This document shows, piece by piece, positions 35,236 to 53,700 of a stretch of 64,000 bases of DNA. A program made the position numbers and the translations under genes. The DNA is from a virus (lineage: Duplodnaviria; Caudoviricetes): positions 70,013-134,012 of the IMG/VR virus record IMGVR_UViG_2934543808_000001; one strand, given 5' to 3'. The number at the start of each line of letters is the position of its first letter. Within the stretch, counting starts at the first letter, position 1. The notes under the pieces were generated by a model, which did no database searches, was not told where the DNA came from, and saw only the letters and a list, made by a program, of their open reading frames with translations.

Positions 35236-37197
35236 TCAGAGCGTCAGTGAAGCGAGGAGCGCCTTCACCTCGTCCGCGTCCAGGCGGACTTCGTCGGCAT
35301 CGTCCTCGGGCTCGTCGTCCGTGTCCGGCTGCTCCGCCGGGACTGCGGCCGGGGTGTTCCCCGTGGGAACGGCGTCGTCGGTGGCGCCCGACTCCGGCTC
35401 GTCGTCGTCCCAGCCGTCGGTGATCTCGTAGTCGTCGTCCCACAGGTCCAGGGAGGAGCCGGCCGGGGGGTTGCTGTGCTGCTTGTCCATGGGGAGGCCC
35501 TTCTTCGCGAGGGAGTTGAGGAGTTGGGTGATCTTCGGCTTGAGGTGTTCGAGGTGGGAGGGGGCGGCGTCGGAGACCTCGATCAGGGCTGTGGCGTCGT
35601 CCAGCGCGACGGCCGTCGGCTGGACGAAGCGGGCGTCGATCTCTTCGGAGCCGCCGACGGCGTGGGTGTCGCCGGTGACGGGGAGCGCCACGGTGGTCAG
35701 CTCGACCTCGGTGGGCTTGCCGAGGTCGATGTCCCGGCCGGCGACGACGTACGGGACGGAGTAGGTGGTGGGGCCGGTGGCGTCGCTGTGCCGGGTGACG
35801 ATGACGTGGTCCGGGTACGTCGCTTCGACGCACACCCAGCAGTCGCCCTGATCCTTCTCGTACTCGTTCTTGAAGAGGTGCCGTACGGAGTCGGCGAGAC
35901 GGGCGTGTAGTTGCTCGTAGGACAGGGGCATGGGGCTCATGGGCGCGGTCTCCGGGTGTGGGGTGGACTTCGCTTCGAGGACGATCTGCGCCGCCGACTT
36001 CGTCTCGACGCGGGCGGCCGGGCGGGCGGACTTCGCTTCGAGGACGATCTGCGCGGCCGACTTCGTCTCGACAGGGGTCTGCTCGGGGGCGGGGGCCGGT
36101 GGCGGGGACGACGCAGGGGCCGACGCGGCGGTCTGGCCGAGGGGAATGAAGGAGGTGTCTCCGCCCCGGACGACGGCGATCTGCTCGAAGGTCACGGGGG
36201 TGGCGGGCACGGGCTCGATGTCCGGGAGGTTGTAGCCGAGGGTGACGTGCGGGGTGTAGCCGTGCCGGGCGTCGAGCTTGTCCGAGTACACCGACGTCCG
36301 CAGGGCGTCCACGACCCGTTGCCGAAGCTCGGCAAGCCCCGGCACGTCGACGGGCACCCAGGCCGGCTCACCGTCCCCGGTGTCGGGGAAGCGGCCGAGG
36401 CCGCCGATGGTGCCTGCCAGTGAGCTGCTGCCGGTGACGGCCGGGGTGACGATGTCGCGGAGGTCGTCCGGGTGGCCGCCGAGTTCCGCGGCGTCGCCGA
36501 GGTACGCGAGCGTGACGTGCAGGTGCTCGGCCGGGGTGCCCTCGGGATGCGCGATCTTCGCCGCCACGTCGGGCGGGAGCCGGAGCGCGACCATCACCCC
36601 GACGCCCGTCTGCGTCTCGGCGGCCTTCAGCTCGACCGCCGACCAGGTCGCCTTGTGCTCCAGCTCCCCCCGCTCCGCGCCGACGGACGCCTTCACCTCC
36701 AGACTCCGCGTGAGCGGATGAGCGCCGTGGAGCACCGGGCTGACCTCGTACAAGTCCAGGTCGTGGATGATCCGTACGCCGTCGTGACGCTTGGAGGCGC
36801 CGCCGGGGGTGACCTTGTACCCGATGGAGAACGCGGCTTCGCCGTTCTCGTGCCACTGCTTGACCTGCGCGTAGGCGTCCCGGCCCCACGACGTCCCCAT
36901 GTTGAACTGCACCGTGGCGACGAGCGCGCCCGCCTCGCGCGGCCAGACGCTGCCCCCGGGGATGGTGGCGAACCGCGGATCACCCGGCATCCACTCCTCG
37001 ACCTCCAGCACGCTCCCCACTGGGTCCTTCCAGGAGTGGTGCCAGACGCTCTTTACCCGGCGGGTGGCGAGGGTGCGGGTGAAAGCCCCCGGGAGGATGA
37101 GGTCTTGGACCTCATCCACCACGCCGGTGACAGCGAAGATGGCGCGGACGATGCCCCTGCTCGGGCGCGGGCGGCTGGACGGCGGGGTACGGGGCAC
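35236..37197 (-). CDS. HK97-type prohead protease fused to a 2H phosphoesterase (LigT/Acb1-like) domain
   Basis: VDEVQDLILPGAF, WHH..DPVG, FSIGY and LYEVSPVLHGA (S78 protease), then HVTLAYLG and PHVTLGY (two HxT motifs); GTG 37197 with AGGAGG RBS. Confidence 0.88.
   Translation of the reverse strand: MPRTPPSSRPRPSRGIVRAIFAVTGVVDEVQDLILPGAFTRTLATRRVKSVWHHSWKDPVGSVLEVEEWMPGDPRFATIPGGSVWPREAGALVATVQFNMGTSWGRDAYAQVKQWHENGEAAFSIGYKVTPGGASKRHDGVRIIHDLDLYEVSPVLHGAHPLTRSLEVKASVGAERGELEHKATWSAVELKAAETQTGVGVMVALRLPPDVAAKIAHPEGTPAEHLHVTLAYLGDAAELGGHPDDLRDIVTPAVTGSSSLAGTIGGLGRFPDTGDGEPAWVPVDVPGLAELRQRVVDALRTSVYSDKLDARHGYTPHVTLGYNLPDIEPVPATPVTFEQIAVVRGGDTSFIPLGQTAASAPASSPPPAPAPEQTPVETKSAAQIVLEAKSARPAARVETKSAAQIVLEAKSTPHPETAPMSPMPLSYEQLHARLADSVRHLFKNEYEKDQGDCWVCVEATYPDHVIVTRHSDATGPTTYSVPYVVAGRDIDLGKPTEVELTTVALPVTGDTHAVGGSEEIDARFVQPTAVALDDATALIEVSDAAPSHLEHLKPKITQLLNSLAKKGLPMDKQHSNPPAGSSLDLWDDDYEITDGWDDDEPESGATDDAVPTGNTPAAVPAEQPDTDDEPEDDADEVRLDADEVKALLASLTL
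35355..35371. promoter_or_regulatory. 17-bp parS-like palindrome, copy 8 (inside the protease CDS)
   Basis: TGTTCCCCGTGGGAACG, read as VPTGN in the gene. Confidence 0.6.
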
Positions 37198-37234
37198 GGC
37201 GGGTTCCTCCTGGCGGACGTCTCGGGCGGTGCGC

Positions 37235-37267
37235 ACCGTGCCCCCGCGGAGGGGTTACCGTCCTGCG
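37235..37267 (-). promoter_or_regulatory. Late-promoter motif copy (protease)
   Basis: CGCAGGACGGTAA; CACGGT 19 nt after GAC. Confidence 0.5.
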
Positions 37268-37304
37268 CTGGCCGTACGGCGGGCCGCACCCGCGTGCCGG
37301 AGGC

Positions 37305-37922
37305 TCACTTCCACGGCAGCTTGCCGCCCTTCTTCTTCGCCGGGTCGTCCTCGTCGGCGTCGGCGTCCTCCTCGCCGTCCGGGTCGTCGTCGGTCTCGGC
37401 GGCCGGGTCTTCCTCGGCGGGGTCGTCGCGGTCCTCTGCGTCCGCAGCGGGGTCGACTGCTTCGTCCGCGGTTCCGAGATCGAGCGGTTCCACGTCGCCC
37501 GGGGGGAGGGCGCCCGGGTCGGTGGCCGCCGGGTCCGTGGCGGCGGGGTCCTGTGCGCCGTCGGCGGGCGGCTCACCGTGGTTGCCGCCGGTCTCCTGCA
37601 TGCCGGCGTCGTCCACGTCGATGGCCCACGTGTCCGGGTCGGAGTACCGCCAGACCTGCCCGGTCTCGTCTCGTACCCAGCCCGTGAGGGTGCCGTCCTC
37701 GGCCTTGTCGAGCCACGCCTGCTCACCGTTCGGGCCGGACAGAGCGGCGTACGCCTGCGCGGGGTCGGTCTCGTCGCCCTCGTCGTACACGTCTCCGGCC
37801 CAGGGGCGCGCGTCGTCCGCTTGGGGCGGCTGCATCTCCGGTGGCGGTGGTGCGGCCGGGGGGCCGGCGGCCGGGTCGGCGGCGGGCTGGGGCAGGTTCT
37901 TCACGGCGTATGCGTAGTCCAC
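37305..37922 (-). CDS. Acidic hypothetical head-module protein
   Basis: 205 aa; Trp-rich core (AWLDKAEDGTLTGWVRDETGQVWRY) with an acidic tail ending KKKGGKLPWK. Confidence 0.65.
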   Translation of the reverse strand: MDYAYAVKNLPQPAADPAAGPPAAPPPPEMQPPQADDARPWAGDVYDEGDETDPAQAYAALSGPNGEQAWLDKAEDGTLTGWVRDETGQVWRYSDPDTWAIDVDDAGMQETGGNHGEPPADGAQDPAATDPAATDPGALPPGDVEPLDLGTADEAVDPAADAEDRDDPAEEDPAAETDDDPDGEEDADADEDDPAKKKGGKLPWK

Positions 37923-38728: not shown

Positions 38729-41700
38729 CTACCGGGTGGCGAGCAGTCCAAGAAGGAAAGCCCGCAGGTCGTCGTCCTCGTACCACTGGCCGTCGAACAG
38801 CGTCGCGATGCCGAGCGGAACCAGGTTCCCGGTGTCGCCCTGACCGTTGCTGTTGCGGAACAGACGCGCGAGGAGCCTGTCCAGCGACGTGCGGCGCCGC
38901 GCGCCCACCCGCCCGCTGTGGGTCCGGGTGAAGTGGAACGCCTCCTGCGCGGCCAGCAGATCCGGGTAGTGCTGCTGAAGGTGCGCGAGCAGGGCGTGCG
39001 CAGCCGTACGGCGGCCGTCGTCCCCAAGGTCGGCGACGGTCGCGATCCGGCTGGCCGGGTCGTAGCCGCCGGCGTCGCCGCCGCGGGCCGTGAGGAACCG
39101 GGCCTCGGTCGGAGACAGCCAGTCCCGGGGCACGAACTGGGCGATGCCCGTCAGGGCGCGCACGGCGTCCGGGTCGCTGTCCGGGGTGGTCACCAGCGTG
39201 GCCGTGGTGCCCGGCCCCATCTCGCGGACCTCGGCGAGGGTGCCCCGTACGGCGTCGGGGAGCGCCGCGGCGTACGCCTGCTGAAGCCGGGCGGCTTCCT
39301 GCCGTGCGGACTGCGCCTCGACGCGGGCCGCCGCGACCTCCAGGTCCGCGCCGGGTGCGCCGCCGGCCGCCGCCGCTTCGAGGTCGCGCAGGCGGCGCTC
39401 GGCGGTGTCGGCGTAGTTCGCGGCGTGCCGGACGGTGCCGTGCGGGTCGTCGCCGAGTTCCGGCGCGGCGGCGCTCAGCCGGGCTACGACGTCGGTGTCC
39501 ACGTCCTGTCCGGCCGCGCGTACGGCCGCGAGGTGACGCAGGGCCTGCGGGCCGGGCCCGCCGTCCACGGAGCGGTCCATCGTCCAGCGCACGCCGTCCT
39601 GTACCTCCGGGAGCTGGCCAGCAGCCAGGGAGGACCGGCTGGTCGGCCGGTACCAGCGGGCGCGGCGGGAGACCTGACCGAACCGGCCCGGGGCGGGCAG
39701 GAGCCGCGCCCAGTGGGCGACGCGGTCGCCGAGCGGCAGCCCATCTGTGTGCTGCGGGAGGCGCCCCGCGGCGGCCAGGCGACGCAGGCGACGGGCCTCG
39801 GGCCACGACCGGATGCGCCGCATCAGGCCCTGACGGAACCGGGAGATACGTTCCCGCATCCGGCGCAGGTTCTCGCGACCGGCCCGCCACGCCTTCGCGA
39901 GGGCCTTCAGGAAGGCCGCGACCAGGGCGATGATCCTCCGCGCGATGGCGACGAGTCCGGCCACGATGTGCGGCAGGATGCCGGCGCGCTGCCCCTCGGG
40001 CAGCCGGGAGGCGATCCGCTGGGCGGTGGCGTTGCGGCTGCTGTCCATACGAGCGGCGAGCTGCTGCACGATCGCGGCGCGACGCTCCGGGGTGAGGAGT
40101 TCACCGCTGTCCGCGGCTGCCTGGAGGGCTTCGCCCACGGCGTCGTCGGCGTGCTGGGTGACGTCGTCGTTCACGCCTGCCTCCCCGTCGGTGTTGTCGC
40201 CCCCAGCCGCCCGGGTGCGCAGGGCCTCCGGGATGAGGCGCAGCAGGTCGGCCGCGCGGCTGGCGGTGTCCTCCTCCGACTCGCCGTCCAGCGGCTCCAG
40301 GTCGTCCAGCGTGCGCACCGCGGCGCGAACAGCGTCGGTGCGTGCGCGGGCCGCCTCCTTCCGAAGCGACTGCACCAGGTCGTCGCGCTCCTGGCCCTCG
40401 AACCCGGCGTCGGTGATCGCGGCCATCGCCCCGTTGCGAGCCCTGCGCATGCCCGCGCGCAGCGCCTCGGGGGTGAGCCGTTCAGCGATCTGCTGGCGGA
40501 GCTGGTGGATGCTGCCCGGCGTGGTCGTGCCGTCGAGGGCGCTGTCGATCACCGCCCGCACGACTGCGTCCGCGTAGTCGGCGCGGACCTTGCCCGCGTC
40601 CGGAGCCGGGTTCGGGTCGCGCTGCTCAGCGTCGTCGTCCGCGGCCGGTGCCTCCGGGTCGGGGAGCTGGTACAGCGGCTCGGAGGACGCCAGGGACCGC
40701 TTGAAGCGCATGCCGTCCCCGTCCTCGATCGTGAGGACCCGCACCCCGCCCGGCGCCTCCTGGATCTGCACGACGCGGTACGCGGTCATGGTGTCCGGGT
40801 CGAACTCGTCCGGCAGGGTGATCGTGTCCCCCTCGCCGACGGAGCCCACGGTGCCCGGCTCCGGCTGGTCGACGTCGTCGGGCTCGTTGCCCGCCGCGGC
40901 GTCCAGGTGGTCGGCAGCTCGCTGCGCCGTTCGACCCTCGGGGGTCGCCGAGTCGGCACCCTCGCGCAGCTCCTCGGCGAGCGCGGTCGCCTGCCCAGGG
41001 GTGAGCGGCAGGTCGTTGGCGACGCGAGCCGCGCCCTGCTGGGCGTCGGGGTCGCTGGCCGGCGCCTGCCCACGGTCGGTGATCGCGTCGCGCTCCTCGG
41101 GGGAGAGCTGCGGGTCCACGGTGGGCCCGGCGACCGGGTCGACGGCCGGGGCCGGCTCGTGGCTGGTGATCTCGCCGCCGCTGGCCGGAGCATCTTCCGG
41201 CCCCAGCTCGGGCGGGTTGCCATCGGCCCCCAGCGCCCGCTGCACCTCGCTGTCGCTCGCAGTCGAGACCTTCTCGGTCTCGCCGGTGGTGGTGTCCTCC
41301 AGGTCGAGGTGAGTCTGCTCGCCCTCCTCCTCCCGGCCGGTGACCCGGGCGGTGCGCGGGCCGTCAGGGGACTCGCGTACGAGGACGTCGCCCTCCTGCA
41401 CGTCTCCCGCAGGGGCGGGTTCGACGGAGGAGACCTTGTGGTCGTTGTCGCCGTCGGCGGTGTCGCCGATGACGCGCAGGTCAGCGATGGGCAGATCCCT
41501 CATACCGTCCGGGGTGGCGACGGTGGCGGTGTCCCCGTCCACCGACTCGACGGTGCCGAGCATGTTGCCGTCCCGGTCGCCGACGACGTTGCCGTCGCGC
41601 ACCAGGCGGCCGTCTGCGGTCCAGCCGGAGGGCCGACCCGCGCCGCCGTCGGTGACGTTGAGGGAGGTGGGCGAGTGGTTGTCGTCGGTGCGGTCGTCGC

Positions 41701-44700
41701 CGAACTGGACGCGGACGCTGTTGGCGCTTGCGCCGGTGACCACGCCTTCCTTGCCGTCGTCGTCGGTGACGAGCGAGCCGGGGAAGAGACCGTTCCCTCG
41801 GGCGTCCGTGGGCACGCTGTCCGCGATCCGGCCGGTCAGGACGTCGGAGTCCGCGCCGGTCTGCGGGGAGCCCTGGAACTGGTCGGCGTCGTCGCGGGTA
41901 GCGCGAGCCGCCGCGGCGTCCGGCATGACGTACACCGGACTGCCGGTGCGGGCGTCCGGGCTGTCGGCGACCAGGACGCGGTACATGTCCGTGGCGCGGC
42001 CCTTCTTGGTCACCGGGATCAGCTTCGGTCCGCCCACGACGTGACCGGCGAGCGTGCGGGCCTTGCCCTGCTTGGTGACGCCGTCGATCCGGACCAGGTC
42101 GCGGAGCTGGAGTTCGCTGACCTGGACCCACTCGGCGGGCCGGCCGCCGACCGGCTCCGGCGCGGCCGGAGGCTCCGGCGTCGCGTCAGGCGCGCCCGCT
42201 GGCGCGTCCTGGCGGCGTTCGTCGCCACCACCTTCCGCGCGCGCGGGACGGTCGGCCGCCGGGTCCGCAGGCGGCTGGACCGGGGTGGTGCGCGCGGCGG
42301 CGGGTTCCGTACGGCCCTCCGACCGCGGGGCGTCCGTACCGCTCTCGGGGGCGGAGGTGTCCGTCGCGGCCGGGGTGACGGCCGTGTCGTCCTGACGCTC
42401 GGCCTCGGGGGCGTTGCTGCTGGACGAGGAGTCGTCGGCCGCCGCAGTGCGGGGGCCTTCGCCGATCTGCCGCCCGTAGCGGTGCTGATCGAACGGCAGG
42501 GTCACGTCCTCCGCCTCGGCGAGACGCAGGGCGGTGCCGCCGTCCGCCGGGATGATGAACGTGTCGCCGTTCGCACCGTGGCGCGTGCCCTCGAACTGGT
42601 CCTTGGAGACGGTGACGCGGTACCCCTTGTACCGGACTCCGGACGCCTTGAAGGTGGCCTTCGTCGGCTCGCCGATGACGTAGCCGAGTCGGCGGCCGGT
42701 GTACCCGGCGTAGAAGCCGGTGATACGCCCGTCGAGTTCTACGACGTCGCCTTCGCGGATGTCGGAGATGGGCACGCGTACGGCGTTGTTCCTGCCGCCG
42801 TTCTCCAGCAGCTCCTCGATGAACTGGTGGGCGGCGCGGTTCTTGCTGGCGTCGTGGTGCTGGGCCCTCGGGTCCTCCGGGCGGAGCACGTCGAAGTCCT
42901 CGCGGATCTGGTCCGCCAGCCAGCCCGGTCCGAGGATGTACTTGTCCTTCAGGTTGGGCTTCTGGTGCTTGTAGTGCGTGGCGTCGAGCCAGCGCAGTTC
43001 GTCGTGCAGGTGCGCCAGGTCGTCGGCCACGTTCCCGCTGGGCGTCACGCCGCGGCCGAGTTCGTCCAGCAGGGCGCGCAGCGCGTAGTAGCGCTCCAGG
43101 TCGACCGGGTTGTCGGCCAGGGTCTCCAGCCCGCGGAAGGGCTTCTCCTTGCCGGGGAAGCCCAGTGACTGGGCCGTGTGCCTCATGGTCCATGCGAGGT
43201 CCGGGTGCACGACGCTCAGGTCCGGCTCGCCGCGCTCCTTGTCGCGCAGCACGAGGTGCGCGATGGCGGCCTCGCGGGTGGCGAACTTCGTCAGGTCGGA
43301 GGCGAACGGCGGCTCGCTCCACCACTCACCGTCCGAAGAGGACCCGCCCGAGGAGTGCAGGTGAGGGGCGAACAGGGTGCCGATCAGCCGGCCGTCTCGC
43401 CAGATCTGACCATCGTGGTCCAGGCGCAGGACGGGCGTCGGGTTGAAGCCCTCGGCGGCGAGCGCGCGCATCCGCTCGGGCGAGCCGAACAGGACCCGCT
43501 CGCCTTCCTCGCTGACGACTCCCTTGGGCCCGGTCTCGTACTGCTCCATCTCCTTGGCCGTCGGTACGCGGCGGCCGTCTACGGTGCCGCCGCGGCGTCC
43601 CGTGCCGTGGGTGGCGTTGAGGAGGTACTGCGAGTCCGCAGCTCCCTCCGGCGCATCCGCCGCTTCTCCCTGCGCAGAGTCAGCCGGGCTTCCCGCGTTC
43701 GAGGCTGCCGCGCCATCGGCCGGCTGCTGCCCGTCGGTCTGCGCGCCGGACGACTCGGAACGGCCCGCGTCCGATTCCGGGGTGCTGGTGTCGTCCTTAC
43801 CGTCCTGGCGGCGGAAGCCGGGGGCGGCGTCCATGACGCTCTGGCGCGCCTGGTCGATCGCGGCACCGATGTGGTTGCCGTTGGCGTCGCGCCACGCCCG
43901 GAGGGCCTGTGCGTCCAGTTCGGGTGCCGACCAGTCGATCGGGTTGCCGTTCTCGTCCCGAAGCTGCTCGTAGGCGTCGGCAAGTCGCACGGCGCCGTCG
44001 CGGCCACCGATCTGTTCGCCGAGGGCTTCCCAGCCGGCGAGGTGCATGCCGCTGGCCGCGTGGCCGAACTGCCAGGTGCGGCCGTCGTCGTCGGACCAGG
44101 TGATGAGCCCGCCGCCCGGAGAAAGCGTCAGGGTGTCGTTGTTCGCGAGGCGCCGCAGGTAGGCGGCGTGCTCCTGCTTGTCGGCCCCGGCCGGGGTCGG
44201 GTTGTTGCCCGAGCGGTAACGGTTCTTCAGGCCGTCGAGTCCGCCAGGCCCGCCGGTGTTCGGCGAGCGGTCGCGGTCGTCATCCTCCCGGCCGCGGTCG
44301 CGGTCACGGTCTCGGCCGGGCAGGTGCGGCAGGCCGCCGTTCGGGGCGCCGCCGTTGCGCTCGCCGCGCTCCTTGTCTCGGTCGCGGTCGCGGCGCCGGC
44401 GGCGGTCGCGGCGCTGCTCGGAGTCCGAGTCATCCGCCTCGTCTCCGTCCTCCGGGCCGTCACCGTCGGGGTCGTGGTCGTCGTCGTTGCCGGCGTCGGG
44501 GCTGGGCGTGCCGCCGTCGCCGCCGTTACCGCTCGCTTCGTCGGGTGCAGCACCATCACGGTCACCGCGCCGACGGCTGCGGCTCTCGCCTTCCCGCTGG
44601 TCGTCGTCCTGGTTCTGCTCCTCCTCCGAGTCCTGCTCGCGGTCCTCGGGCTCGCCGTCCTGGCGGGCGTCGTCGTCCTGCTCGTCGCGGCCAGTCGCCT

Positions 44701-47700
44701 TGTCATGGGCGACCACGAGACCGGCCGTGGCGAGATCCTTGCCGTGCCATACGCGGCGCTCCCCGTCGGGGGAAATGCTCACGTACTCCAGCACCTTGTC
44801 CTTGTTGGTGTTGTCGATCCGGCCGATCACCACGCCGTCGACCCTGACGGTCCACTCCCGGTCCAGGCCGGGCTTGTCGCCGTCGTCAGCGGTGACCTCA
44901 GCTCGGGCCACCAGCGCCTTCACGCGTTCGGGGCCGCCGAGTTCGTAGGTCTCGTCGTCTACCGGAACATCCCAGCCGATGTTGATGTCGGTGCGCGCCC
45001 GGTTCGTCGCCCTCTTGCGGACGTTCGGCTCCGGCTTCTCCACCAGCACGACCCACTCATCAGGTCCCACCCTGTCCTGGCCGTGGTCGGCGTCGATGGA
45101 CACCGAGCGGACGGCGCCTTCGACTCCGCCGCGGTGGGTGTGGACGACGTAGTTCGGAGTCTCCATGCCGTCGAAGCCGTCGGTCGTGCCGCGTCGCGGG
45201 TGCTTCACGGTGTGGAAGATGTCGCCCTTGCGGAGTTCGGAGCCGCGCGCCCAGCGCATGCCCTTGGGCAGCTCGGCTTCGCCGATCTTCAGCTCTCCGG
45301 TTCCGGTCCGGGCGTCGGCGAAGGGAGCCATCGGCGCGCCGATGCTCTCCCGCCGGCCGTTCGCCCAGTGCATCCCGGCCCAGTTCGAGCTGTCTTCCTG
45401 CGTGGCCCATCCTGCGAAGGCGGCCCAGTAGGCGCCACTGTCGGACACAGCGGCGTTGAGGGGGCGCATGGCTTCGGGGAACTGGGCACGGATGCCGTAC
45501 GACTTCTGATCGGGGTTGTCGCCGCCGACCACGCTGACGACGAAGTCCTCCGCCTGCTGCTCGGAGAGACCGTGCCCTGCGGCTCCGGCGCGAGCGCGGG
45601 CGATCTGCTCGCGTACCGCCGCCTGGACCTTCTGCGCTCGCTCCTCGACCAACTGGTTCCGGAGTTCCGCAGCCTTCTTCCGCCCCGCCCGGGTGGCGAT
45701 GTGGTCCATCAGGATGGGGCGGAGGTCCGCGCGCAGCTCGTCGCCCATCTTGCTCACGGAGGCGCGGAGATCTTCCGCGAGGCCGGCGAGGAACTGGCGT
45801 CCCTCCAGCGGTGCTTCTTCCAGGCTGCGGCGGGTGTTCTCGTCGTACTGGGCCAGCGGCTCGACATCGGCCATCGTGGAGATCCACTGCATCACGGACC
45901 AGGGGTCGGCGCTGGCCGTCCAGCCCTCCCTGTTGTGAGCGATCGCACGGTCGAGGTAGACGTTGCGCACCCCGGCCGGCTGCGGCTGCGCCCATATACC
46001 GGCCCACCGGCGGATCGGTTCGGCACGGGCGGTTTCGCCCACGTCGCGGGGGAAGCTCAGGACGGGCTCGGAGTCCGATTCCGCGACGATGAGGGCGGCG
46101 GCGTGCGCCGCGTTGTCGAAGTCGCTGCTGCGGTACCACGGCTCACCGACGGCGCCGTGCAGCGTGTGGTCTGCGCGCCACGACTCCCCGCCCGTGAAGT
46201 GGGCCTTGTTGTCGTTGTACAGGAGTGAGCCGATCCGCTTGCCGTCGAGGTAGACGGCGCGGCGAACCTCGTCGGCCTGGAAGCGCCGCTCGGCGGGGAT
46301 GACGTGGATCTCGCCGATCTCCACGGTCTTGCCACCGCGCTCACCGACCGTCTCGCGGGTCTCGTCCGGGCCCTTCCAGCCGACCGTGGGCTGGTCGGTC
46401 TCGGGCGCGGTCAGGCGCTCGACCTTCTCGTCCGCCAGGAGGGAGACGCCGTTGCCGTCCGAGGGCTCTTCCCCCTGCTCCCCGACGTGCAGGCGCCATG
46501 CCTTGATGCTCTGCCCGTCGCGGGTGGCCGTGATCTTCTTCGGCGGGGCAAGCAGGTAGCCCTCGCGGACAACGGCGTTGCCCGCGCTGTCCTGGGTCTC
46601 CACGCGGACGTAGTCGCCCTCGTTCACCTGGTCGATGCCCTCGACTTCGGAGCGGTCGACGCCGTCGTCGGTTGGCTCCTCGGGGGCCGTGCTGCGCTTG
46701 ATCGCTTCCCTGATCTGCGCCCCGGCAGCTTCCTCGATCTCCTCGCGCTGCTGGTCTTCGGCGCGCCGCCTGCGGACGGTGGCCCGGTGCCGCGCGAGGT
46801 GGGTGTCGGTCACGTCGAGGAACCGGCGCAGCGGCTCCTCCATCTCCTGGCGTTCGTTGTCCTCCAGAGTGGCGAGCAGTCCGGCCGCGTGGTCGCGGGC
46901 GGCGACCAGGTACCGCTCCGCCTCGTCGTGGTCGTTGTCCTCCTGGGCGGCGAGCGCGTCCAGGACGGCCCGGCCCAGCAGGTTGACGCCGGCGGGGGTG
47001 TCGTCGTTTGCCCAGGTACGACCTGCCGCCCGACGGACCTGGAGTTCGGCGGCATCGACCGGGACCATCGCGGCCCGCCAGTCGCCATCAGTCGCGAACG
47101 GCTCGGCCGCCGGAACGTCCGGGGCTGCGGGAGCCTCCGGGGTGCCAGTCTCCGGTTCCTCGGCGCGCGGCTTGTACGGCTGGGCGTAGTGGTCGGTCTC
47201 GCCCGGGGCGGGGATCGTCGCCGCCTTGCGCGCGGAGTCGTACTGCTGGAACTCCATCTTGCTGGCGGCGCCGAGCAGCACCTTCCGGTTGCGGCGGCCC
47301 TCGGGGGTGCTCTGGTCCTGCTGGGCAGCGGCCTCGCGCGCCGCGGCGGCCAGCGCGCCGGCCTGCGCCGAGTAGGGGCTGTAGCGGCGGTGGCCCGGGT
47401 CCCACGGCAGTGTGTCGATCGGCGTGCCGTCGTCGTAGTTCCCGGACAGGGTGAGCTTGCTCAGCTCCCGAACCTGAGCCGGGGTGAGCGTCATCTCGGT
47501 GATCGCCCGGTCCGGCGTGACCGGCGTGCGCGTGGCCTGCTCCGGCTTGCCGTTCTCGTCCGTCCCGCCGGTGTACTTCTGGCGGAGGAAGTCGAGGCCG
47601 TCACGGACGATGGAGGCGGCGCGCACAGGGGCGGCACCGGCCTGGTTAGGCAGTTCCTCGTGCCACTGCATGTCCGCGGGGGCTCCGCCGTCGGCGTTCT

Positions 47701-50700
47701 GGCCCCACCAGTACCGGCGGCCGTTGTCGCCGATGCGGGCGCGGACCCATCCGACGGTGTTGCCGTCCGCGTCCACGATGGTGCCGTGGCCGGCTTCCAC
47801 GTCGAGGTCGCGCAGGCGGTACCCCGTGGACAGCTCCAGGCCCTCGGGGGTCGACGCCTGGGCGATGTCGTCCGCGTTCTTGCGGGCCTTCGTGTCCTCG
47901 CCGCTGCGGTCCCCTCCGAACGGGGTGCCGTCGGGGCGAGTCACGTCCTTCAGCGGCCACACGCGCGTGCTGCTGTCCCCGCGCACAAGCACCGACCCGT
48001 CGTGCACGGCCATGACGTCACCGAGGCCGTCAGGCGTCATCACCTGGTCGTCCTTGGCGGGCAGATCCTGCTCCGGGGCAGCCGCGGGGGTGGTCGTCTC
48101 GGCGGGCGGGACCGGGGCGTCCGTGTTCCGTTCGGGCGCCGGCGTGTTGGTGTCGTCGTTGTTGTTGAGGTTGGCGAGATCGTCGCGGACCCGCTGGGCG
48201 TCCAGCTTGGTGGTGCCTCCGGAGCCGTAGCGGCCTCCGGCGATGGCCTGGTCCAGCTCCTCGTCGGTGGCCGCGGGCAGCAGCGGCCGGGCCTGGCCGT
48301 TGCGGCGGCGCACCTGTGCGGGGCTGATCTCCTGTCGCTTGCCGCCCACGCCCGGCTCGTCGCTGGTGCTGACCACGGTGAGCATCGGCGGGTCGATCTC
48401 AGAGACCGTGCCGATGTTCGGCGTGCCGTCCTCGTCATCGAAGTCGACCTGGTCGCCGGCCTGGAAGTCGTCCAGCTTGAAGTCGCGGCGGTACTCGCCC
48501 TTCGGCGGCTGGGTGGGGTCGTCGTCGTTGACGGCCCGGAAGACCCAGCCGAGCGAGCCCGGGTCGAGGACTTCGGTGGCCCGGGTCACCGCGACGTACG
48601 CGACGCGCAGCGCCTCGTCGTCGGGGATGGTGTCCCAGTCGATGTTGCCGTCGTCGTTGTCCTCGGGCCCCTTGAAGTCGTCGGCGATGCGGACGCGTTC
48701 GGACTCCAGGCCCTTCGCCTTGTGGGCGGTGGTCACGAGCACGTCGTGCGGCTCGTGCTCGGGCACCAGGCGGCCGTTGCCGTCATCGCTGTCGTCCTGC
48801 GGGTACAGCTTCGCGAGGTGGGCGTCGATCCGCTGCTGCGCCTCTTCCAAGGACAGCTTGTTGTCGATCTTGTGGACGCCGGAGCGGGTCTTCGACTTCC
48901 ACGGCACGCTGCGCTTGCCGGGCTCGTAGTAGTACCGGCGGGTCGCCGGGTCGTACACGAGCTTGCCGACGCCGTTGTTCTTGCCGTCGCCGAGCCACCG
49001 CCGCAGGCCGTCGGCGTTGGGGTCGTTCCAGTCGAGGCGGACCCACACGCGGTCACCGACGAGTTCGGTGGCCGCCGGCCGGGAGCCGGAGGAAAGCAGG
49101 GCGTCGATGTCGTCGCCGTGCTTCTCCAGCAGGTTGAACAAGCTGGCGAGCTGCTGGAGGTCGGGGTCGGTCTTGACCTCCTCCACGATGTCGTCGAAGG
49201 CCATGCCGTTGAAGCGGGCCAGTTCGGCGTGATCGGTGTCCTCGCCCTCGGCCAGGGCGTGGGCGGCCTGCACGAACTCCTGGAGGGCCTTCACGCCGCC
49301 GGACACGGCGACGGTGCGGCCCGCGGTGAGCGCCTGCACCGCGGCGAGCGCGACGCCGGCGTTGGTGCGGGCGATGACCATGGACTCTTCGCCCGGGTGC
49401 AGTTGCTCGATGCGGGAGTTCTTGCGGTCGAAGCCCTTCAGCCGCATGCGGGTGCCGAGCAGCCGCAGGAACCGGTTGCCGACGTCGGCGACGGCCGGGC
49501 CGAAGCGGAAGGACTGGGTGAGGGTGGCGCGCGCGTCCACGGGGAGCTTGGCCAGGGCGTCACTCGCGCCCCGGAAGCCGTAAATGGCCTGGTTGGAGTC
49601 GCCAACGGCCACGACCTGCACGCCCTGGTCGAGGGCGGCGCGGACGACACCCTCCATCACCGGGTTCACGTCCTGGGCCTCGTCCCAGAACAGGGTGTCG
49701 GCGTCGATCTTGTAGCCGCCGAGCGCCCACTGCTTGACGATGTAGTCGAAGTCCATCGTCAGGTCGCGGTCGGGGTCGCCGGCCTCGGGGTCGCTGAGGT
49801 TCGCCCACATGCGGTCAGCGAGCGGCTTGACCGCGTTGAACAGGTCCCGACGCTCTTCGTCGGTCTTGGCCCTGACGTGCTGCGGGCCCATCTCGGCGTC
49901 GGCGGACTTCGCCCACTCGCGGATCATGCGCTCGGCGACGGTGGCCGCGCCGCCCGGGGTGAGGTCCCGGTTCCCGGCCTTGACCGTGTCGTACCAGCGC
50001 ATGCGGTCGGCGATCTGCTGGGCGCTGAGCTTCTTGAAGCCTCCGGCCTTGCTGCTGGGCAGCCGGTCGTTCAGACGCCGGTCGGCGACCCGGGCGGCGT
50101 ACGCGTTCGCCGTGGAGGCGAGCATGTTCTTCGCGTACTCGCCGCGGGCCTGGGCCTCGCGGGCCTCGGCGGCGACCGAGCGGTTGAACGCCAGGTAGAC
50201 GATCTTCTTGCCCGGCATGCGGTGCGAGAGCATCTTGAGCGTGGACGACTTGCCGGTACCGGCGAGAGCCATCACCGCCATGTTCAGGCCGCGGCGGGCC
50301 GCGCCCTCGATGATGATGTTCTGCTCGTCGGTGGGCGGGTAGTCCTCGCGGGCGGAGGCTTCGGAGCTGATGCGCTCCCACTCCTCATCGGAGTAGCCGC
50401 CCTCCTTCGCGTCGGGCAGATCCTCCACGCGCGTGACGAGGCCCTGGACTTCGGCGTCGTTCAGGCCGTAGCCCCCGAGCCGGTCCTGCACCGTGTCCCC
50501 GCGGGACGGCTCGACCAGCTTGCCGTTGTCGTCGTACTTGGGTTCCGGCTTCCACCGGCGGCGCTCTTCGTCCTCCAGCTCCCACTGACGCCGTTCCAGG
50601 CGCCGCCGCATGGCGAGGTCGAGGGGGTCGGTGGACTCGGCGAGGGGGCTGAGCTGGTCTTCGATCTCATCGATGGCGTCGCCGAGCTGTTCGGCGGTCA

Positions 50701-53700
50701 TGTCCGTCGGCGCGGTCTCCGGCTCCGGCTGCCGCTGCGGGCGGGCCGCGGGGGCGGGGCGCTCTCGACCATCGGCGGGCCTCGGCGCGCGCGGGGCGCC
50801 CGGCTCGCGGGTGCCCCCCGTGCCAGAGGTACGAGAGCGGGGTGAGGCGTTGGACGGCGTGCCGGAGTCCGCCGGGGCGTCCGTCTCGGCGGACTCCGCC
50901 GGGGCGCCCTCGGTCTCCTCCGGCTCCTCGGTGGTCTCGGGCTCCTCCTCCTGCGGCTGGTCCGCCTCGGGAGCAGCGGACTCGTCTTCCGGGGCACCGG
51001 ACTCGGGCGCGGCGGCGTCCTGCTCGGACTCGGCCGCTGCCTCATCGTCGGGCTGCGGGGCTTCCTCCTCGCCCGGCTCCGTCTCGTCCGTCTCCCCGGA
51101 GTCGTCAGGCTGCGGGGCCTCTTCCTCGGCCGGCTGCGTCTCGTCCGTCTCGTCGGAGTTCTCGCCACCTTCGGGCCGCAAGTCGTCCAGCTCGGCACGC
51201 ACCTGCGCGGGGTTGAGCGCGACGTCGCCGTCGACGGAGTCGGTGGTCTCCTCGCTGGGCGCCGGGGCGTCCGGCTGCGCCTCGCTCTGCTGCTGGTCGT
51301 TGTCGGCGGGCGGGGCGTCCTCGCTCAGCCCGTCCAGGTCGCTGCGCACCTGCGCGGGGTCGAGGGTGGTCTCGCCGCGCTCCTCGCGGGCACGCTGCTG
51401 CTTCTCCCGCTTCTTGCGTTCCTTCGCGGCCTTCCTCGCCTCGGCGTCCGGCCAGGTGATGCGCGGCCGGCCCTTCTCGTCGGTGCCGATCGACGGGGCG
51501 GCGGGCGTACGGGGGAGCAGGTCGGTGTCCTGCTCGGCCGCCGGGTCGTCCACGTCCGCGGCGTCCTCGCCGGCGGCAAGGCGGGCCTCGCGGAGCTGGT
51601 GCTCCAGCGCCTCCATGCGGTTGCGCTTGTCCTTGGCCGCGTCCTCGCTGCTGACCTCCCGGCCCTGCTCCTTGATGATCGCGGCGATCAGCTTGGAACG
51701 GCGCTCGGCGGCCTCCAGCTCGGCGGCCTGCTCGAAGGGGCGGTCGACGCGCTCTCGCGCGGTCGCGGCGGCGCGCTCCTCCTGGCGGAGTCGGCTCTCC
51801 AGCCGCACGATCATCTTCTCGACGTCGGCGAGCTTGTCCTCGATCCGGGTGATCGGAAGGGTCGACTCCTTCTTCAGGTCCTTCTCGTCGTACGAGAAGA
51901 GGCTCTGCGGGACGTCGGGCATGCGGATGTCCACCAGGTGCACGCGGCCGGCGTTGCTCCACGTGGTCCGGTACTTCGCGGTGACCTCGATGTTGCCGAC
52001 CTTGCCGATGACGACCTCGGGGTGGCCGCCAGGCTTGTACGGGTTCTCGGTGCCCTGCCGCAGCACGGCGCGCGCCGCGGTGGCGAGCGCCTGGGCGGCC
52101 TCGTCGCGCTTGGTGAAGTCCTTGGTGCCGATGGTGGCGTTGAAGTCGTCGCCGCGGGTGTTCTTCTTCCGCGCGACGACGTCGCGGAGCTGGGCGGTGA
52201 GTTCGTTGGTCTTCTCGCGCAGCCGCTCGGCGGCGTGGATCGTGGACTTGTAGCCCTCGATCGTGCGCATGTGGCCCTTGAGCTTGCGCGTCAGGGCGCC
52301 GAGGGCGACCTTCACGTTGGCCTGCTCCAGCAGGTACGGGTTGCCGGTGGAGATGGCCGTGACCTGCTCGGCGTTGAACACACCGTCGGGGATGTCCTCG
52401 ATGGTCCGCTCGGTCAGGTTGCCCTTCATGATCTGGCGGATGAACTTCGCCTTGCGGGCCACCGTCTGCCACGAGAAGCCGTCGAACGACCCCTCGGTGA
52501 CGTACTGGAAGATCGCGACCTCGGGGTTGAAGTTGCCCTGGCGGATGATGCGGCCGTTGCGCTGTTCGAGGTCGGCCGGTCGCCACGGGCAATCGAGGTG
52601 GTGCAGGGCGGTCGCGCGGAGCTGGACGTTGGTGCCGACGCCCATCTTCGTGGTGGAGCCGAGGAGGACGGAGATCTTGCCGTTCCGGGCGTCGGCGAAG
52701 AGCCGCGCCTTCTCCACGTCGTTCTTGGCCTCGTGGATGAAACGTATCTTCTCGGCGGGCACGCCCCGCTCGATGAGGAGATCCTTCAGCTCCTGGTAGG
52801 CGGGGAACTTGGACTGGCCCAGCTCCTCCATGTCGGCGGGGCCCTCGGTCTTGCCCTTCTTCTTCTTGGACTTGCCCGGGTCGACCGGGGTGCCCATGTC
52901 CAGGAAGACGATCTGAAGGCCGCCCGGCGTCTCGTGCGGGGTCGGGTTGTTCTTCGAGGTCGGGTAGACCGCGTCCTTGGTGTCGGCGTAGATCCGGGCG
53001 ATGTTGTCGGCCGCCGCGGGCAGCTTGGCGCCCTGCTCGTCAATGCCGACCATGCGGGGGTCGAGGGAGACCTTCCGACCGTCGGAGTTGATCTTGAGCA
53101 TGTTGTCGACGGTCGGTTCGACGTCGCCGCGCTTCACGGCCCGCGCGCGGGCCGCGATCTGATCCATGTAGGCCAGGAGCCCTTCGGTGGGCTCGACGGA
53201 AACGGTGACGGCCTTGCCGCCGGCCACGTCCGGGGTGTCCAGGTACTCGGCGAGGTCGTCGGAGTTCTTGACGTCGGCGACGGTGCGCCAGATCCTCAGC
53301 AGCTCCGGCATGTTCCGGAACGCGGCGAAGCGGCTGACTTCCCGGAAGCCGGACCCGTCGGCGGCCAGCTCGGTGCCGTTGACGACCTTGCCGTAGGTGG
53401 AGGCGAAGTCATCGAAGTTGCGGACCTTGGCCTTGTCCAGCAGGTCGGGCCGCAGGTAGCGCAGCATCGTGTGCGCTTCGGTGATCGAGTTGGAGATCGG
53501 CGTGGCCGTGGCGAAGGTGACGACGCGGCCGGACTTCGTGGTCTTGCGCAGGTACTCCAGCTTCATGTCGAGGTCGGAGGCCCTGTTCGAGCCCTCGATC
53601 GCTGCGCCGGGGAGCGTGGAGTTGGTGGTCAGGTTCTTGTAGTGGTGGGCTTCGTCTACGACGACGTAGTCGATGCCCGTGTCCTCGAAGTAGAGGCCCG

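What the first reader, a model, noticed from the sequence alone, without database searches (positions are those of the whole stretch)
35236..51371. Candidate capsid-targeting helix shared by the protease C-terminus and three sites in the giant protein
Seen: the protease ends in VRLDADEVKALLASL (35236-35292). The giant protein has TTLDPAQVRSDLDGL (~51326-51371), VALNPAQVRAELDDL (~51180-51224) and TKLDAQRVRDDLANL (~48167-48211), each in an acidic disordered linker next to a helicase module. Consensus is L(D/N)xxxV(R/K)xxLxxL. Known: the HK97 protease is loaded into proheads through a C-terminal peptide. Inference: a reusable packaging tag loads the giant protein's enzyme modules into the capsid, which would be an undescribed cargo-loading system.
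Basis: partly seen in the sequence, partly recalled or inferred. Interest (0 to 1): 0.85.

Follow-up and report, generated by a model that had tools for sequence, protein, structure and literature searches.

The report
Protease-tail motif repeated in giant protein
A Streptomyces phage repeats the short helix that ends its capsid-maturation protease three times inside a 6,710-residue multi-enzyme protein, and the repeat is kept across more than a hundred related phages, so it is probably a shared tag for loading proteins into the phage head, though binding itself is untested.

Summary
All genes lie on the minus strand. The window is the last 64 kb of a 134-kb Streptomyces phage related to phage Gilgamesh.

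- **Sites:** the strict motif L[DN]xxxV[RK]xxLxxL occurs only four times in the proteome: giant residues 2500, 2549 and 3553, and protease residue 652, two residues from its end.
- **Conservation:** the tail is kept in 79-80 of 80 protease homologues behind divergent acidic linkers. A full-pattern motif occurs in 106 of 121 giant homologues, as an island in unconserved linkers.
- **Specificity:** 115 stand-alone methylase-helicase relatives outside this phage family lack it.
- **Cut sites:** E-x-K-[S/A] looks like this protease's cut site. It lies inside the protease tail in 74 of 80, and at the matching place in 0 of 234 giant sites, where Lys is replaced by Arg or another residue.

Best reading, about 0.5: a docking helix for the procapsid interior, cuttable in the protease and uncuttable in the giant. 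The giant also has a conserved N-terminal candidate signal. The Gilgamesh clade keeps only half the motif.

Verdict: a new variant of known capsid-targeting tags.

The parts
35236..37236 (-). Prohead protease polyprotein, 666 aa. It consists of an S78 protease, a 2H phosphoesterase, a conserved C-domain (residues about 440-578), an acidic disordered linker (586-651) and the terminal helix.
   Evidence: Pfam Peptidase_S78 E=2e-10 and 2_5_RNA_ligase2 E=1.2e-11. AlphaFold2 models. 79 homologues.
35239..35289 (-). C-terminal tail VRLDADEVKALLASLTL. The motif L652..L664 is a predicted helix at 654-664 and contains the candidate cut site E-V-K|A (35260-35271).
   Evidence: Helix (10-residue block mean pLDDT 86 and 79 with the deeper alignment). 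Tail kept in 79 of 80 by the relaxed pattern and 80 of 80 by matrix. E.K[SA] lies in the last 16 aa of 74 of 80.
38729..58861 (-). Giant multi-enzyme ('polyvalent', DarB-like) protein of 6,710 aa, numbered from the TTG at 58861. Homologues start 2-6 residues later.
   Evidence: GC3 0.92. Pfam: Eco57I-type methylase 874-954 (weak, below cut-off), SNF2/Helicase_C 1542-2109, UvrD 2858-3430. 157 homologues, 120 of them seen.
51323..51373 (-). Giant motif site 1, ETTLDPAQVRSDLDGLS (L2500), directly after the methylase-SNF2 module and before the acidic linker.
   Evidence: In 16 giants with the orthologous site, pairwise identity is 0.71 in the motif and 0.16 in the next 40 aa.
51176..51226 (-). Giant motif site 2, DVALNPAQVRAELDDLR (L2549), inside the acidic linker.
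48164..48214 (-). Giant motif site 3, TTKLDAQRVRDDLANLN (L3553), after the UvrD module and before a Pro/Thr/Asp-rich linker.
58790..58861 (-). Giant N-terminus with its only E-x-K-[SA] site (LEAK|A, residues 21-24), followed by the conserved RRPWNPDLHPRDSKGRFIETGG. It is a candidate cleaved N-terminal propeptide and rival loading signal.
   Evidence: (54 of 121 giants have E.K[SA] in the first 60 aa; in the N-termini printed, others read LE(A/T/S)KR).
33757..35067 (-). Major capsid protein, 436 aa, HK97 fold, with an N-terminal scaffolding (delta) domain of about residues 1-132 (34672-35067). It has two invariant E-x-K-S sites (residues 97-100 and 130-133). It is the proposed, untested, receptor of the helix.
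   Evidence: Pfam Phage_capsid. Profile against PDB: HK97 1ohg E=3.1e-33. The site at 130-133 lies within 2 residues of HK97 K103|S104 by that alignment. Invariant columns in 19 capsid proteins.
59127..61565 (-). Portal-MuF fusion protein immediately upstream of the giant gene. It places the giant inside the head-assembly module.
   Evidence: Pfam Phage_portal E=4.8e-45 and Phage_Mu_F E=4.5e-4. Gilgamesh gp46 is annotated 'portal and MuF-like fusion protein'.

Best explanation
The motif (extended form x-V-x-L-[D/N/S/T]-x-x-x-V-x-x-x-L-x-x-[L/I/V]) is a short docking peptide. It consists of a hydrophobic V-x-L anchor, an Asp(-Pro) helix cap and a three-turn helix.

**In the protease.** The motif is the free C-terminal tail behind a roughly 65-residue acidic tether. 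Like the C-terminal part of the HK97 protease and the C-terminal helices of scaffolding proteins, it fixes the polyprotein to the inside of the assembling procapsid. The most likely receptor is the scaffolding (delta) domain or N-arm of the capsid protein. The alternative receptor is a core made of the protease's own C-domain.

**In the giant.** The giant multi-enzyme protein carries 1-3 internal copies, each at the exit of an enzyme module. These use the same receptor, so its bulky methylase-helicase and UvrD modules are held against the shell and enclosed.

**After the protease fires.** It appears to cut after Lys in E-x-K|[S/A]. The delta domain is removed, the polyprotein is cut into its domains, and its tail is cut through the helix (EVK|A), which releases it. 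The giant's copies have Arg or a non-basic residue at that place and cannot be cut there. The giant loses only a short N-terminal propeptide and stays whole for delivery with the DNA.

**Shown:** the motif is shared, conserved and family-specific; a helix is predicted; cut-site-like motifs are distributed as described.

**Inferred:** binding to the capsid, the identity of the receptor, actual cleavage, and packaging and ejection of the giant.
For: **The motif is real and shared.**
- The strict pattern occurs 3 times in the giant against 0.0015 expected. There are only 4 sites in the phage proteome.
- A matrix made from homologues' tails alone ranks the giant's sites 1-3 of 6,695 positions.
- A matrix made from giant sites alone has its best hit at the C-terminal tail in 80 of 80 proteases.

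**It is conserved as an island.**
- The tail is kept in 79 of 80 proteases by the relaxed pattern, behind unalignable acidic linkers and despite a swap of the middle enzyme between 2H and NUDIX.
- Among 52 distant representatives of the C-domain (down to about 30% identity), the best position lies at the C-terminus in 35, and 30 of those are above threshold.
- In giants, the strict pattern is found in 31 of 121 (52 sites). The iterated matrix finds it in 115 of 121 (234 sites). 217 sites with the full hydrophobic pattern occur in 106 of 121.
- Identity is 0.71 in the motif against 0.16 in the linker after it.

**It is tied to this head system, not to the enzymes.** Only 5 of 120 shorter relatives of the methylase-helicase module carry it, and all 5 are fragments of giants of this family. 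Across 187,512 aa of ORFs from this phage, the Gilgamesh locus and 21 related loci, the hits above threshold were every protease tail, the giant sites, and seven weaker matches: four near giant C-termini, two in ORFs at the tape-measure position, and one in a 290-aa Gilgamesh ORF.

**Anatomy.** AlphaFold2 gives a helix at 654-664 after a disordered stretch at 593-651. With the deeper alignment, pLDDT is 86 and 79 (10-residue block means). The capsid protein has an HK97-type delta domain.

**Cut sites.**
- E.K[SA] occurs 8 times in the protease against 0.30 expected, all in inter-domain linkers plus the tail.
- 11 of the phage's 14 such sites are in the protease, the capsid protein and the giant's N-terminus.
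- One capsid-protein site lines up within 2 residues of the HK97 maturation cut.
- 74 of 80 tails contain the site, against 0 of 234 giant sites.
- The residue after the conserved Val is K 77 / R 2 / other 1 in tails, and K 1 / R 83 / other 150 in giants. The Lys share of Lys+Arg in the background is 0.22 in giants and 0.36 in proteases.

**Tail and giant sites vary together** in 41 phage pairs. The last hydrophobic residue pairs as L/L 45, I/I 11, L/I 13 and I/L 4, and the -AIQ ending occurs in both.

**Precedents.** The 16 C-terminal residues of the 80alpha scaffold and of CpmB share one capsid site. The C-terminal part of the SPN3US protease is needed for incorporation.
Against:
- Similarity of the tail to HK97 gp4's C-terminus (NEAQINALLQSI) is the top hit in gp4 but is not beyond chance (P = 0.26).
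- The Gordonia phage Gray protease tail does not score.
- Amphipathicity is modest: mean hydrophobic moment 0.42 against 0.30 for random 11-mers, about the 80th percentile. Sites 2500 and 2549 are near the median.
- 15 of 121 giants lack a full site. These include the Gilgamesh clade, with a half motif, and truncated records. Their proteases keep the tail, so the giant can presumably be loaded without it.
- The long acidic linkers at 4726-4885, 5018-5078 and 5471-5565 have no motif.
- A conserved N-terminal candidate signal exists.
- In distant C-domain homologues the tail has no Lys. The 'cuttable tail' part therefore holds only for the Streptomyces clade.
- Counts over homologues are not corrected for shared descent. 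The co-variation rests on three or four clades.
- The iterated matrix can drift. It picked up 13 partial sites and 4 sites near giant C-termini.
- The high pLDDT of the tail may mean it docks on its own C-domain rather than on the capsid protein. I could not inspect the coordinates.
Confidence: 0.5

Rival explanations
1. The helix is a protease-to-giant tether rather than a capsid tag. The receptor is the protease polyprotein's own conserved C-domain. The tail binds it in cis or head-to-tail, and the giant's copies bind it in trans. This brings the protease to the giant, or builds a mixed internal core. The capsid protein is not touched directly.
For: - C-domain and tail always travel together, including in stand-alone proteins of 217-248 aa.
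- The tail's pLDDT rises to 86 and 79 (10-residue block means) when the C-domain alignment is deepened, which is high for a free helix.
- In T4, targeting sequences bind the scaffolding core rather than the shell (passage).
Against: - I could not inspect contacts in the model.
- The C-domain has no significant structural relative that would suggest a peptide-binding groove. The best PDB match has E = 0.035, and the best viral match has E = 6e-4 with TM 0.30.
- The giant has almost no candidate cut sites for a recruited protease to use, at 0.26 per 1000 aa.
Confidence: 0.17
2. The motif is a recognition or cleavage site of the prohead protease, which cuts the giant into separate enzymes at these sites and trims its own tail.
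For: - The sites lie at module exits.
- The tail contains E-V-K-A, which fits the E-x-K|[S/A] pattern enriched in the protease linkers and the capsid protein.
Against: - 0 of 234 giant sites fit E.K[SA] at the matching place. Lys occurs there once in 234, and in the distant giants the residue is Asp, Ala, Ser or Asn.
- What is conserved is a 16-residue pattern with helical spacing and an Asp-Pro cap, not a short extended P4-P4' stretch.
- The capsid protein's own E-x-K-S sites stay invariant in the very phages whose giants have no basic residue there.
Confidence: 0.07
3. The motif acts after injection, in the host cell. It would be a short linear motif binding a host or phage factor to place the delivered enzymes, and the protease tail shares it for the same reason.
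For: - Both proteins carry enzymes plausibly delivered into the host: 2H or NUDIX, and methylase plus helicases.
- Polyvalent proteins are proposed to act early after entry (passages).
Against: - If the E-x-K sites are cut, the tail ends up on the C-domain fragment and not on the 2H or NUDIX enzyme.
- The tail also occurs on stand-alone C-domain proteins and on plain protease-C-domain proteins with no enzyme.
- Stand-alone relatives of the methylase-helicase module lack it.
Confidence: 0.08
4. The giant's sites are relics of ancestral C-termini. On this view, separately encoded cargo proteins each ended in the tail and were later fused into one gene. The retained copies are now dispensable or only mildly useful.
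For: - Each site sits at the end of a module and before a linker, where a former C-terminus would be.
- The Gilgamesh clade shows decay of the second half of the motif.
- The modular make-up of giants varies widely. Gilgamesh shares only the N-terminal roughly 285 aa and the C-terminal roughly 1,200 aa.
Against: - Conservation over giants whose C-terminal regions are 44-99% identical to the window's, while the neighbouring linker drops to 0.16 identity, argues for present selection.
- Lys is avoided at the cut-site position.
- I found no natural split form ending in the motif. The five shorter proteins are fragments, three of them labelled partial by their source.
Confidence: 0.1

Closest known systems
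C-terminal capsid-targeting part of the HK97 gp4 prohead protease (Duda, Oh & Hendrix 2013, J Mol Biol 425:2765)
   Same: - Both are S78 proteases encoded just upstream of a capsid protein with an N-terminal delta domain.
- The candidate signal is the extreme C-terminus, predicted helical.
- A review passage says GFP fused to a segment of gp4 is encapsidated.
   Different: - I saw only the title of the primary paper, in reference lists. It is not held, so its content is recalled.
- Sequence likeness to gp4's tail is not significant (P = 0.26).
- Here the protease is a 666-aa polyprotein with an enzyme, a C-domain and a roughly 65-aa acidic tether.
- The tail is copied inside a second protein, which is not described for HK97.
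Helix-and-hook at the C-terminus of the 80alpha scaffolding protein, shared with SaPI1 CpmB (Dearborn et al. 2017, eLife 6:e30822)
   Same: A short amphipathic helix of about 11 residues at a C-terminus binds the capsid protein's N-arm. Two different proteins carry the same peptide and use one site on the capsid protein (abstract and section 7).
   Different: - There both copies are C-terminal and the two proteins compete, as phage against satellite.
- Here the extra copies are internal, number 1-3 per protein, and are encoded by the same phage.
- There is no RIIK hook here.
- Binding here is not shown.
T4 capsid targeting sequence of IPI-III and Alt, and the first 30 residues of P1 DarB
   Same: A short reusable peptide loads proteins that are later ejected into the host. 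DarB is a large methylase-helicase like the first module of this giant (passages).
   Different: - Those signals are N-terminal. In T4 they are cut off by the protease and bind the scaffolding core.
- The motif here is internal or C-terminal, and in the giant it lacks the cut-site pattern.
- The giant's own N-terminus (LEAK|A at residues 21-24) is the closer formal match to a T4-type signal.
Polyvalent proteins of phages and conjugative elements (Iyer et al. 2017, J Bacteriol 199:e00245-17)
   Same: It is a giant protein with several enzyme domains, encoded beside portal/MuF and head genes, and predicted to be packaged and injected (passages; Pfam).
   Different: In that paper the word 'linker' has no occurrence, and none of the 12 of 24 passages shown for my other search terms mentions a loading motif. 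It proposes processing by peptidase domains built into the proteins. I did not read the whole text or its supplements.
Encapsulin cargo-loading peptides
   Same: A short peptide behind a flexible linker docks varied cargo to the inside of an HK97-fold shell. This comparison is recalled and comes from no call.
   Different: They are C-terminal only, have a different consensus, involve no protease and no maturation, and are not phage components. I did not test this here.

Membership tests
HK97-type protease C-terminal capsid-targeting tail | Sits at the extreme C-terminus of an S78 prohead protease encoded next to a delta-domain capsid protein | tested here: met
   Peptidase_S78 E=2e-10. The motif ends 2 residues before the stop. 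The capsid protein has an N-terminal helical domain and matches HK97 gp5 at E=3.1e-33.
HK97-type protease C-terminal capsid-targeting tail | Sequence relationship to the gp4 tail | tested here: inconclusive
   The best position of the tail matrix in gp4 is its C-terminal helix (EGDGNEAQINALLQSI), but 26% of shuffles score as high.
HK97-type protease C-terminal capsid-targeting tail | Needed and sufficient for incorporation into proheads; binds the capsid interior | not testable with these tools
A bench test is needed.
Scaffold-type C-terminal capsid-binding helix (80alpha SP/CpmB kind) | Short helix behind a flexible region, carried by more than one protein of the head system | tested here: met
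   Helix 654-664 after the disordered stretch 593-651. The same motif is found in protease and giant by two independent matrices.
Scaffold-type C-terminal capsid-binding helix (80alpha SP/CpmB kind) | Contacts the capsid protein N-arm | not testable with these tools
   No complex model was available.
T4-type capsid targeting sequence | N-terminal propeptide of 10-20 residues removed by the prohead protease | tested here: not met
   The motif sites are internal (0.43-0.64 of giant length, 10th percentile to maximum; lowest 0.16) or C-terminal. 0 of 234 giant sites carry the E.K[SA] pattern. The giant's separate N-terminal LEAK|A does fit this description as a pattern.
Prohead protease cleavage site (E-x-K|[S/A], inferred here) | Glu at P3, Lys at P1, Ser or Ala at P1' | tested here: not met
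   Giant sites match in 0 of 234. The protease tail matches in 74 of 80. The consensus is inferred from enrichment and from position relative to the HK97 cut. It has not been shown biochemically.
Polyvalent (DarB-like) phage protein | Several enzyme domains in one polypeptide, encoded within the head or packaging module | tested here: met
   SNF2-rel_dom, Helicase_C, UvrD-helicase and AAA_19 are above their cut-offs. Eco57I-type methylase is below its cut-off, at 20.2 against 25.3 bits. The gene lies between portal-MuF and the protease.

The most novel reading that the evidence does not exclude
Phage heads sort their protein contents with one docking helix in two versions. A cuttable version (E-V-K|A) sits on proteins meant to be released after assembly. 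An uncuttable version (Arg or a non-basic residue at that place) is repeated inside a roughly 720-kDa multi-enzyme effector. The effector is thereby pinned at several points to the scaffolding domains of the shell, enclosed whole, and freed only when the scaffold is digested. This would be a general, transferable way to load very large cargo into HK97-fold capsids.
Probability: 0.3. Interest if true: 0.75.

Novelty: new variant of a known kind. Interest (0 to 1): 0.6.

Why it matters
How phages load very large injected proteins into the head is known for only a few model phages, and there through N-terminal signals. This finding concerns a widespread family, with at least 157 giant-protein clusters. 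They lie mostly on Streptomyces contigs of 125-138 kb, some labelled plasmid.

The family offers a simple and testable rule: a 16-residue peptide is shared between the maturation protease and the cargo, and a Lys-to-Arg difference may decide which protein is released and which is kept.

If true, it would explain how a 6,710-residue anti-defence protein is enclosed. It would also give a compact tag for loading foreign proteins into HK97-type shells. And it would let cargo proteins be recognised from sequence in related phages.

Tried and rejected
- **Cleavage site at the motif in the giant** is rejected: 0 of 234 sites fit.
- **Motif as part of the methylase-helicase module** is rejected: 115 of 120 shorter relatives lack it, and the 5 that carry it are fragments of this family.
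- **Homology of the tail to HK97 gp4's tail** is not significant (P = 0.26). The tail of the Gordonia phage Gray protease is not found by the matrix (P = 0.22 for its best, non-terminal, hit).
- **Hydrophobic moment** as proof of an amphipathic helix gives only a modest signal.
- **Fold of the protease C-domain:** no significant PDB match (best E = 0.035). There are only weak viral matches, among them two 'prohead protease' entries.
- **Natural split genes ending in the motif:** none found. P0204-P0206 end 10-19 residues after a motif but are labelled partial.
- **Arthrobacter phage Edmundo head module:** I looked for shared terminal tags and saw none by eye. I dropped this line.
- **Literature:** searches for 'polyvalent protein'+capsid+phage+packaged (7 papers), Gilgamesh+'Streptomyces phage' (0 papers), and HK97/gp4/'capsid targeting'/C-terminal gave no description of this motif. 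Supplementary files were not seen. Duda 2013 and Veesler 2014 are not held.
- **Co-variation of tail and giant sites** is kept only as a hint, because it follows three or four clades.

Full report
**Context.** The window is the last 64,000 bases of a single 134,012-base contig with about 70% G+C. The relevant genes are on the minus strand. In order they are:
- a portal-MuF fusion (59127-61565);
- a 6,710-residue ORF (38729-58861);
- a 205-residue acidic protein;
- a 666-residue prohead protease (35236-37236);
- an HK97-fold major capsid protein (33757-35067).

The giant protein holds an Eco57I-type methylase match (weak, below cut-off), an SNF2 helicase (1542-2109) and a UvrD helicase (2858-3430), followed by about 3,300 residues with no Pfam match. 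The nearest named relative is Streptomyces phage Gilgamesh, which has the same gene order. Related elements lie on contigs of 125-138 kb in many Streptomyces assemblies. One record is titled a complete plasmid, and a few copies are chromosomal.

**Observation.**
- The strict pattern L[DN]xxxV[RK]xxLxxL occurs three times in the giant, against 0.0015 expected from 2,000 shuffles.
- It occurs nowhere else in 111 candidate ORFs of the phage except two residues from the protease's end.
- The pattern was drawn after the fact, so I made two independent scoring matrices.
  - One came from 62 distinct tails of protease homologues, leaving out the window's own. It ranks the giant's three sites first, second and third of 6,695 positions. 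Scores are 9.7, 7.1 and 5.1. The maximum in shuffled giants had a 95th percentile of 5.0, and the highest of 300 shuffles was 11.8.
  - One came from giant sites only. Its best position is the C-terminal tail in 80 of 80 proteases.

**Conservation in the protease.**
- 79 homologues were found with the C-terminal part as query.
- The tail V[R/H]LDAxEVKAxLAxL is present in 54 of 80 by the strict pattern and 79 of 80 by a relaxed one. The miss reads VTLDPADLEKELAALNA.
- The acidic linker before the tail cannot be aligned between homologues.
- The enzyme in the middle of the polyprotein is swapped between a 2H phosphoesterase and a NUDIX hydrolase.
- A search of 1.84 billion representatives with the C-domain plus tail gave 52 proteins, down to about 30% identity.
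  - In 35 the best position is within 6 residues of the C-terminus, and 30 of those are above the shuffle threshold.
  - Typical tails read TVTLDPEQVQRDLASLRT or KVTLDPDAVRAQIAALRA, which look even more like the giant's sites.
- Some of these proteins are stand-alone proteins of 217-248 residues.
- I scanned 37 of the 52, after dropping fragments, tail-less hits and two proteins already in the first set. Of these, 21 have the S78 protease, 15 a 2H domain, 8 NUDIX and 3 a peptidoglycan-binding domain.

**Conservation in the giant.**
- With the conserved C-terminal 1,141 residues as query, 157 giants were found and the best 120 were listed. I did not see the other 37.
- The strict pattern occurs in 31 of 121, counting the window's own, at 52 sites. 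The consensus is TTLDPEQVRSDLDSL, and each site is followed by low-complexity acidic or Pro/Ser/Thr sequence.
- A matrix iterated three times, with a threshold at the 99th percentile of shuffled maxima, finds 234 sites in 115 of 121.
- Counting only sites with all four hydrophobic positions, and leaving out four hits near giant C-termini, gives 217 sites in 106 of 121. 16 giants have one site, 69 have two and 21 have three. 13 hits are partial.
- Variants include TVTLDRDQVDEDLESIR, TVTLDRDEVAQQLDAIR, TVRLSEDEVREALARLR and VVRLSQDEVNNTLASIQ.
- At the orthologous first site of 16 giants, pairwise identity is 0.71 in the motif and 0.16 in the next 40 residues.
- The flanks are poor in hydrophobic residues, 0.12 against 0.22 overall.
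- About nine Gilgamesh-type giants of 4,000-4,700 residues, which lack the helicase modules, have only TVTLTPDEV-NAPAAAA.

**Specificity.**
- Among the 120 best shorter relatives of the methylase-helicase module (200,060 residues; 4,312 hits in all), only 5 carry the motif. All 5 are pieces of giants of this family. The 115 stand-alone enzymes from other actinobacteria and metagenomes do not carry it.
- I also scanned 187,512 residues of ORFs from this phage, the Gilgamesh locus and 21 related loci. Hits above threshold were every protease tail, the giant sites, and seven weaker matches: four near giant C-termini, two in ORFs at the tape-measure position, and one in a 290-aa Gilgamesh ORF.
- The motif therefore belongs to this head system and not to the enzymes.

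**Anatomy.**
- The conserved positions are V(-2), L0, D/N/S/T(+1, often followed by Pro), V5, L9 and L/I/V12. That is a short hydrophobic anchor, a helix cap and three helical turns.
- AlphaFold2 on the protease with 80 sequences gives the S78 domain, the 2H domain, a C-domain (440-578), a disordered stretch (593-651, pLDDT below 50) and a helix at 654-664.
- With a deeper alignment of the C-terminal 236 residues, the helix has pLDDT 86 and 79 (10-residue block means). I could not see whether it touches the C-domain.
- The hydrophobic moment is only modestly raised.

**A second pattern, and a difference between the two proteins.**
- E-x-K-[S/A] occurs 8 times in the protease, against 0.30 expected. 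None of 1,000 shuffles reaches 8. Three sites lie between the protease and 2H domains, four between 2H and the C-domain, and one inside the tail (EVK|A).
- The capsid protein has two such sites, both invariant in 19 homologues.
- The one at 130-133 lies within two residues of the HK97 cut. This follows from the alignment to the mature HK97 chain and from the gp5 sequence in the HK97 record, FNK|SLGSD. That the mature chain starts at Ser104 follows from its length of 282 out of 385 residues, and from recall.
- In the whole phage there are 14 such sites, and 11 are in the protease, the capsid protein and the giant's N-terminus.
- Across homologues the density is 9.1 per 1,000 residues in proteases and 0.26 in giants.
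  - 74 of 80 tails contain a site.
  - 54 of 121 giants have one in the first 60 residues. In the N-termini printed, others read LE(A/T/S)KR.
  - 0 of 234 giant motif sites have it at the matching place.
- The residue after the conserved Val is Lys in 77 of 80 tails. In giant sites it is Lys in 1, Arg in 83 and another residue in 150 of 234. Both figures depart from the background Lys share of 0.36 and 0.22.
- These counts are not corrected for shared descent.
I reached the pattern here before reading that note.

**Most likely mechanism.**
- *Shown:* one conserved, family-specific peptide is shared by the protease's end and by 1-3 internal places of the giant. It is predicted helical behind a disordered tether. 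Cut-site-like motifs are arranged so that the tail is cuttable and the giant's copies are not.
- *Inferred:* the peptide docks its bearer to the inside of the procapsid, either on the delta domain or N-arm of the capsid protein or on a core built from the protease C-domain. The giant uses its copies as extra tethers for its bulky modules. On maturation the delta domain and the tail are cut, while the giant loses only an N-terminal propeptide.
- *Precedents:*
  - The 16 C-terminal residues of the 80alpha scaffold bind the capsid N-arm, and CpmB carries the same helix-and-hook.
  - The C-terminal part of the SPN3US protease is needed for its incorporation.
  - The T4 targeting sequence and the first 30 residues of P1 DarB load injected proteins.
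  - The C-terminal part of HK97 gp4 is the recalled precedent; a review passage is.
- I put this reading at about 0.5.

**Against it, and rivals.**
- No binding test could be run.
- The tail's likeness to HK97 gp4's own tail is not significant.
- 15 of 121 giants lack a full site while their proteases keep the tail. Other long linkers of the giant have no site.
- The conserved N-terminus of the giant is an alternative loading signal.
- The cuttable-tail idea holds only where the tail has Lys, which is not so in distant C-domain proteins.
- Rivals:
  - a protease-C-domain receptor, making the helix a protease-giant tether (0.17);
  - relics of former C-termini after gene fusion (0.10);
  - a host-directed motif (0.08);
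  - a cleavage site (0.07), which the 0 of 234 result and the variable residue after Val speak against.
The last hydrophobic residue pairs as L/L 45, I/I 11, L/I 13 and I/L 4, and -AIQ endings occur in both. This follows a few clades and is only a hint.

**Comparison and novelty.**
- As a working kind, this is a capsid-targeting or docking peptide, which is known.
- As membership:
  - It meets the positional features of an HK97-type protease tail and of a scaffold-type C-terminal helix.
  - It fails the features of a T4-type N-terminal cleaved signal.
  - It cannot be tested for binding here.
- The apparently new points are the internal multi-copy use inside a giant multi-enzyme protein, and the systematic Lys/non-Lys difference.
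- I found no description of either in the searches, or in the passages of the polyvalent-protein paper. Supplements and the primary HK97 papers were not available to me.

**Verdict.** This is a new variant of a known kind, with interest 0.6.

Noticed in passing
window 35236-37236 (-), protease residues 180-425: The protease is a polyprotein. Seven E-x-K-[S/A] motifs lie only in the two inter-domain linkers, including a tandem duplicated unit VETKSAAQIVLEAKS x2 (residues 388-425, 35962-36075). The 2H enzyme is therefore probably cut free inside the head. In homologues the middle enzyme is 2H, NUDIX, or a segment containing a peptidoglycan-binding domain.
   Followed up: partly
window 58730-58861 (-), giant residues 1-44: The giant's N-terminus is conserved: a short helix-like leader, then LE(A/T)K|[A/S/R], then RRPWNPDLHPRDSKGRFIETGG. 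It looks like a T4-style cleaved targeting propeptide. It is also shared by Gilgamesh-type giants, which lack the full internal motif.
   Followed up: partly
window 39887-39979 (-), giant residues 6295-6325: A strongly hydrophobic, membrane-helix-like segment (ILPHIVAGLVAIARRIIALVAAFLKALAKAW) lies in the conserved C-terminal region. This would fit a role in the ejection channel or in membrane insertion.
   Followed up: no
loci L002-L022; tables: Relatives lie mostly on contigs of 125-138 kb in many Streptomyces assemblies. One record is titled a complete 135,349-bp plasmid (L004), and others lie in chromosomes (L020). The family may live as phage-plasmids.
   Followed up: no
window 19158-23240 (-), residue about 90; L019 18022-21294; L020 18440-21286: The probable tape-measure protein has a weak motif-like stretch near its N-terminus. 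It reads VDRDGLRGELDEV here, and K/RVKVDEERFRxxLDxxR scores above threshold in two relatives. This may be chance in a helical protein.
   Followed up: no
giant C-terminal region, about 162 residues from the end (in L006, L010, L020 and P0100, P0104, P0127, P0130): A conserved Y(A/T)(A/T)ALPDxV(R/A)xxLAE(I/V)R stretch gives weak matrix hits. It could be a distant copy of the helix or unrelated.
   Followed up: no
window 29498-30133 (-), 31622-32104 (-), 32168-33607 (-): Three genes lie just downstream of the capsid gene. One is a poly-gamma-glutamate hydrolase (E=7e-59). One is a protein with an IPT/TIG domain. One is a 479-aa ORF at the position of Gilgamesh's metallophosphoesterase.
   Followed up: no
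window 37305-37922 (-): A 205-residue, very acidic, low-complexity protein lies between the giant and the protease. It has no Pfam match, no motif and no E-x-K-[S/A] site. Its role is unknown.
   Followed up: no
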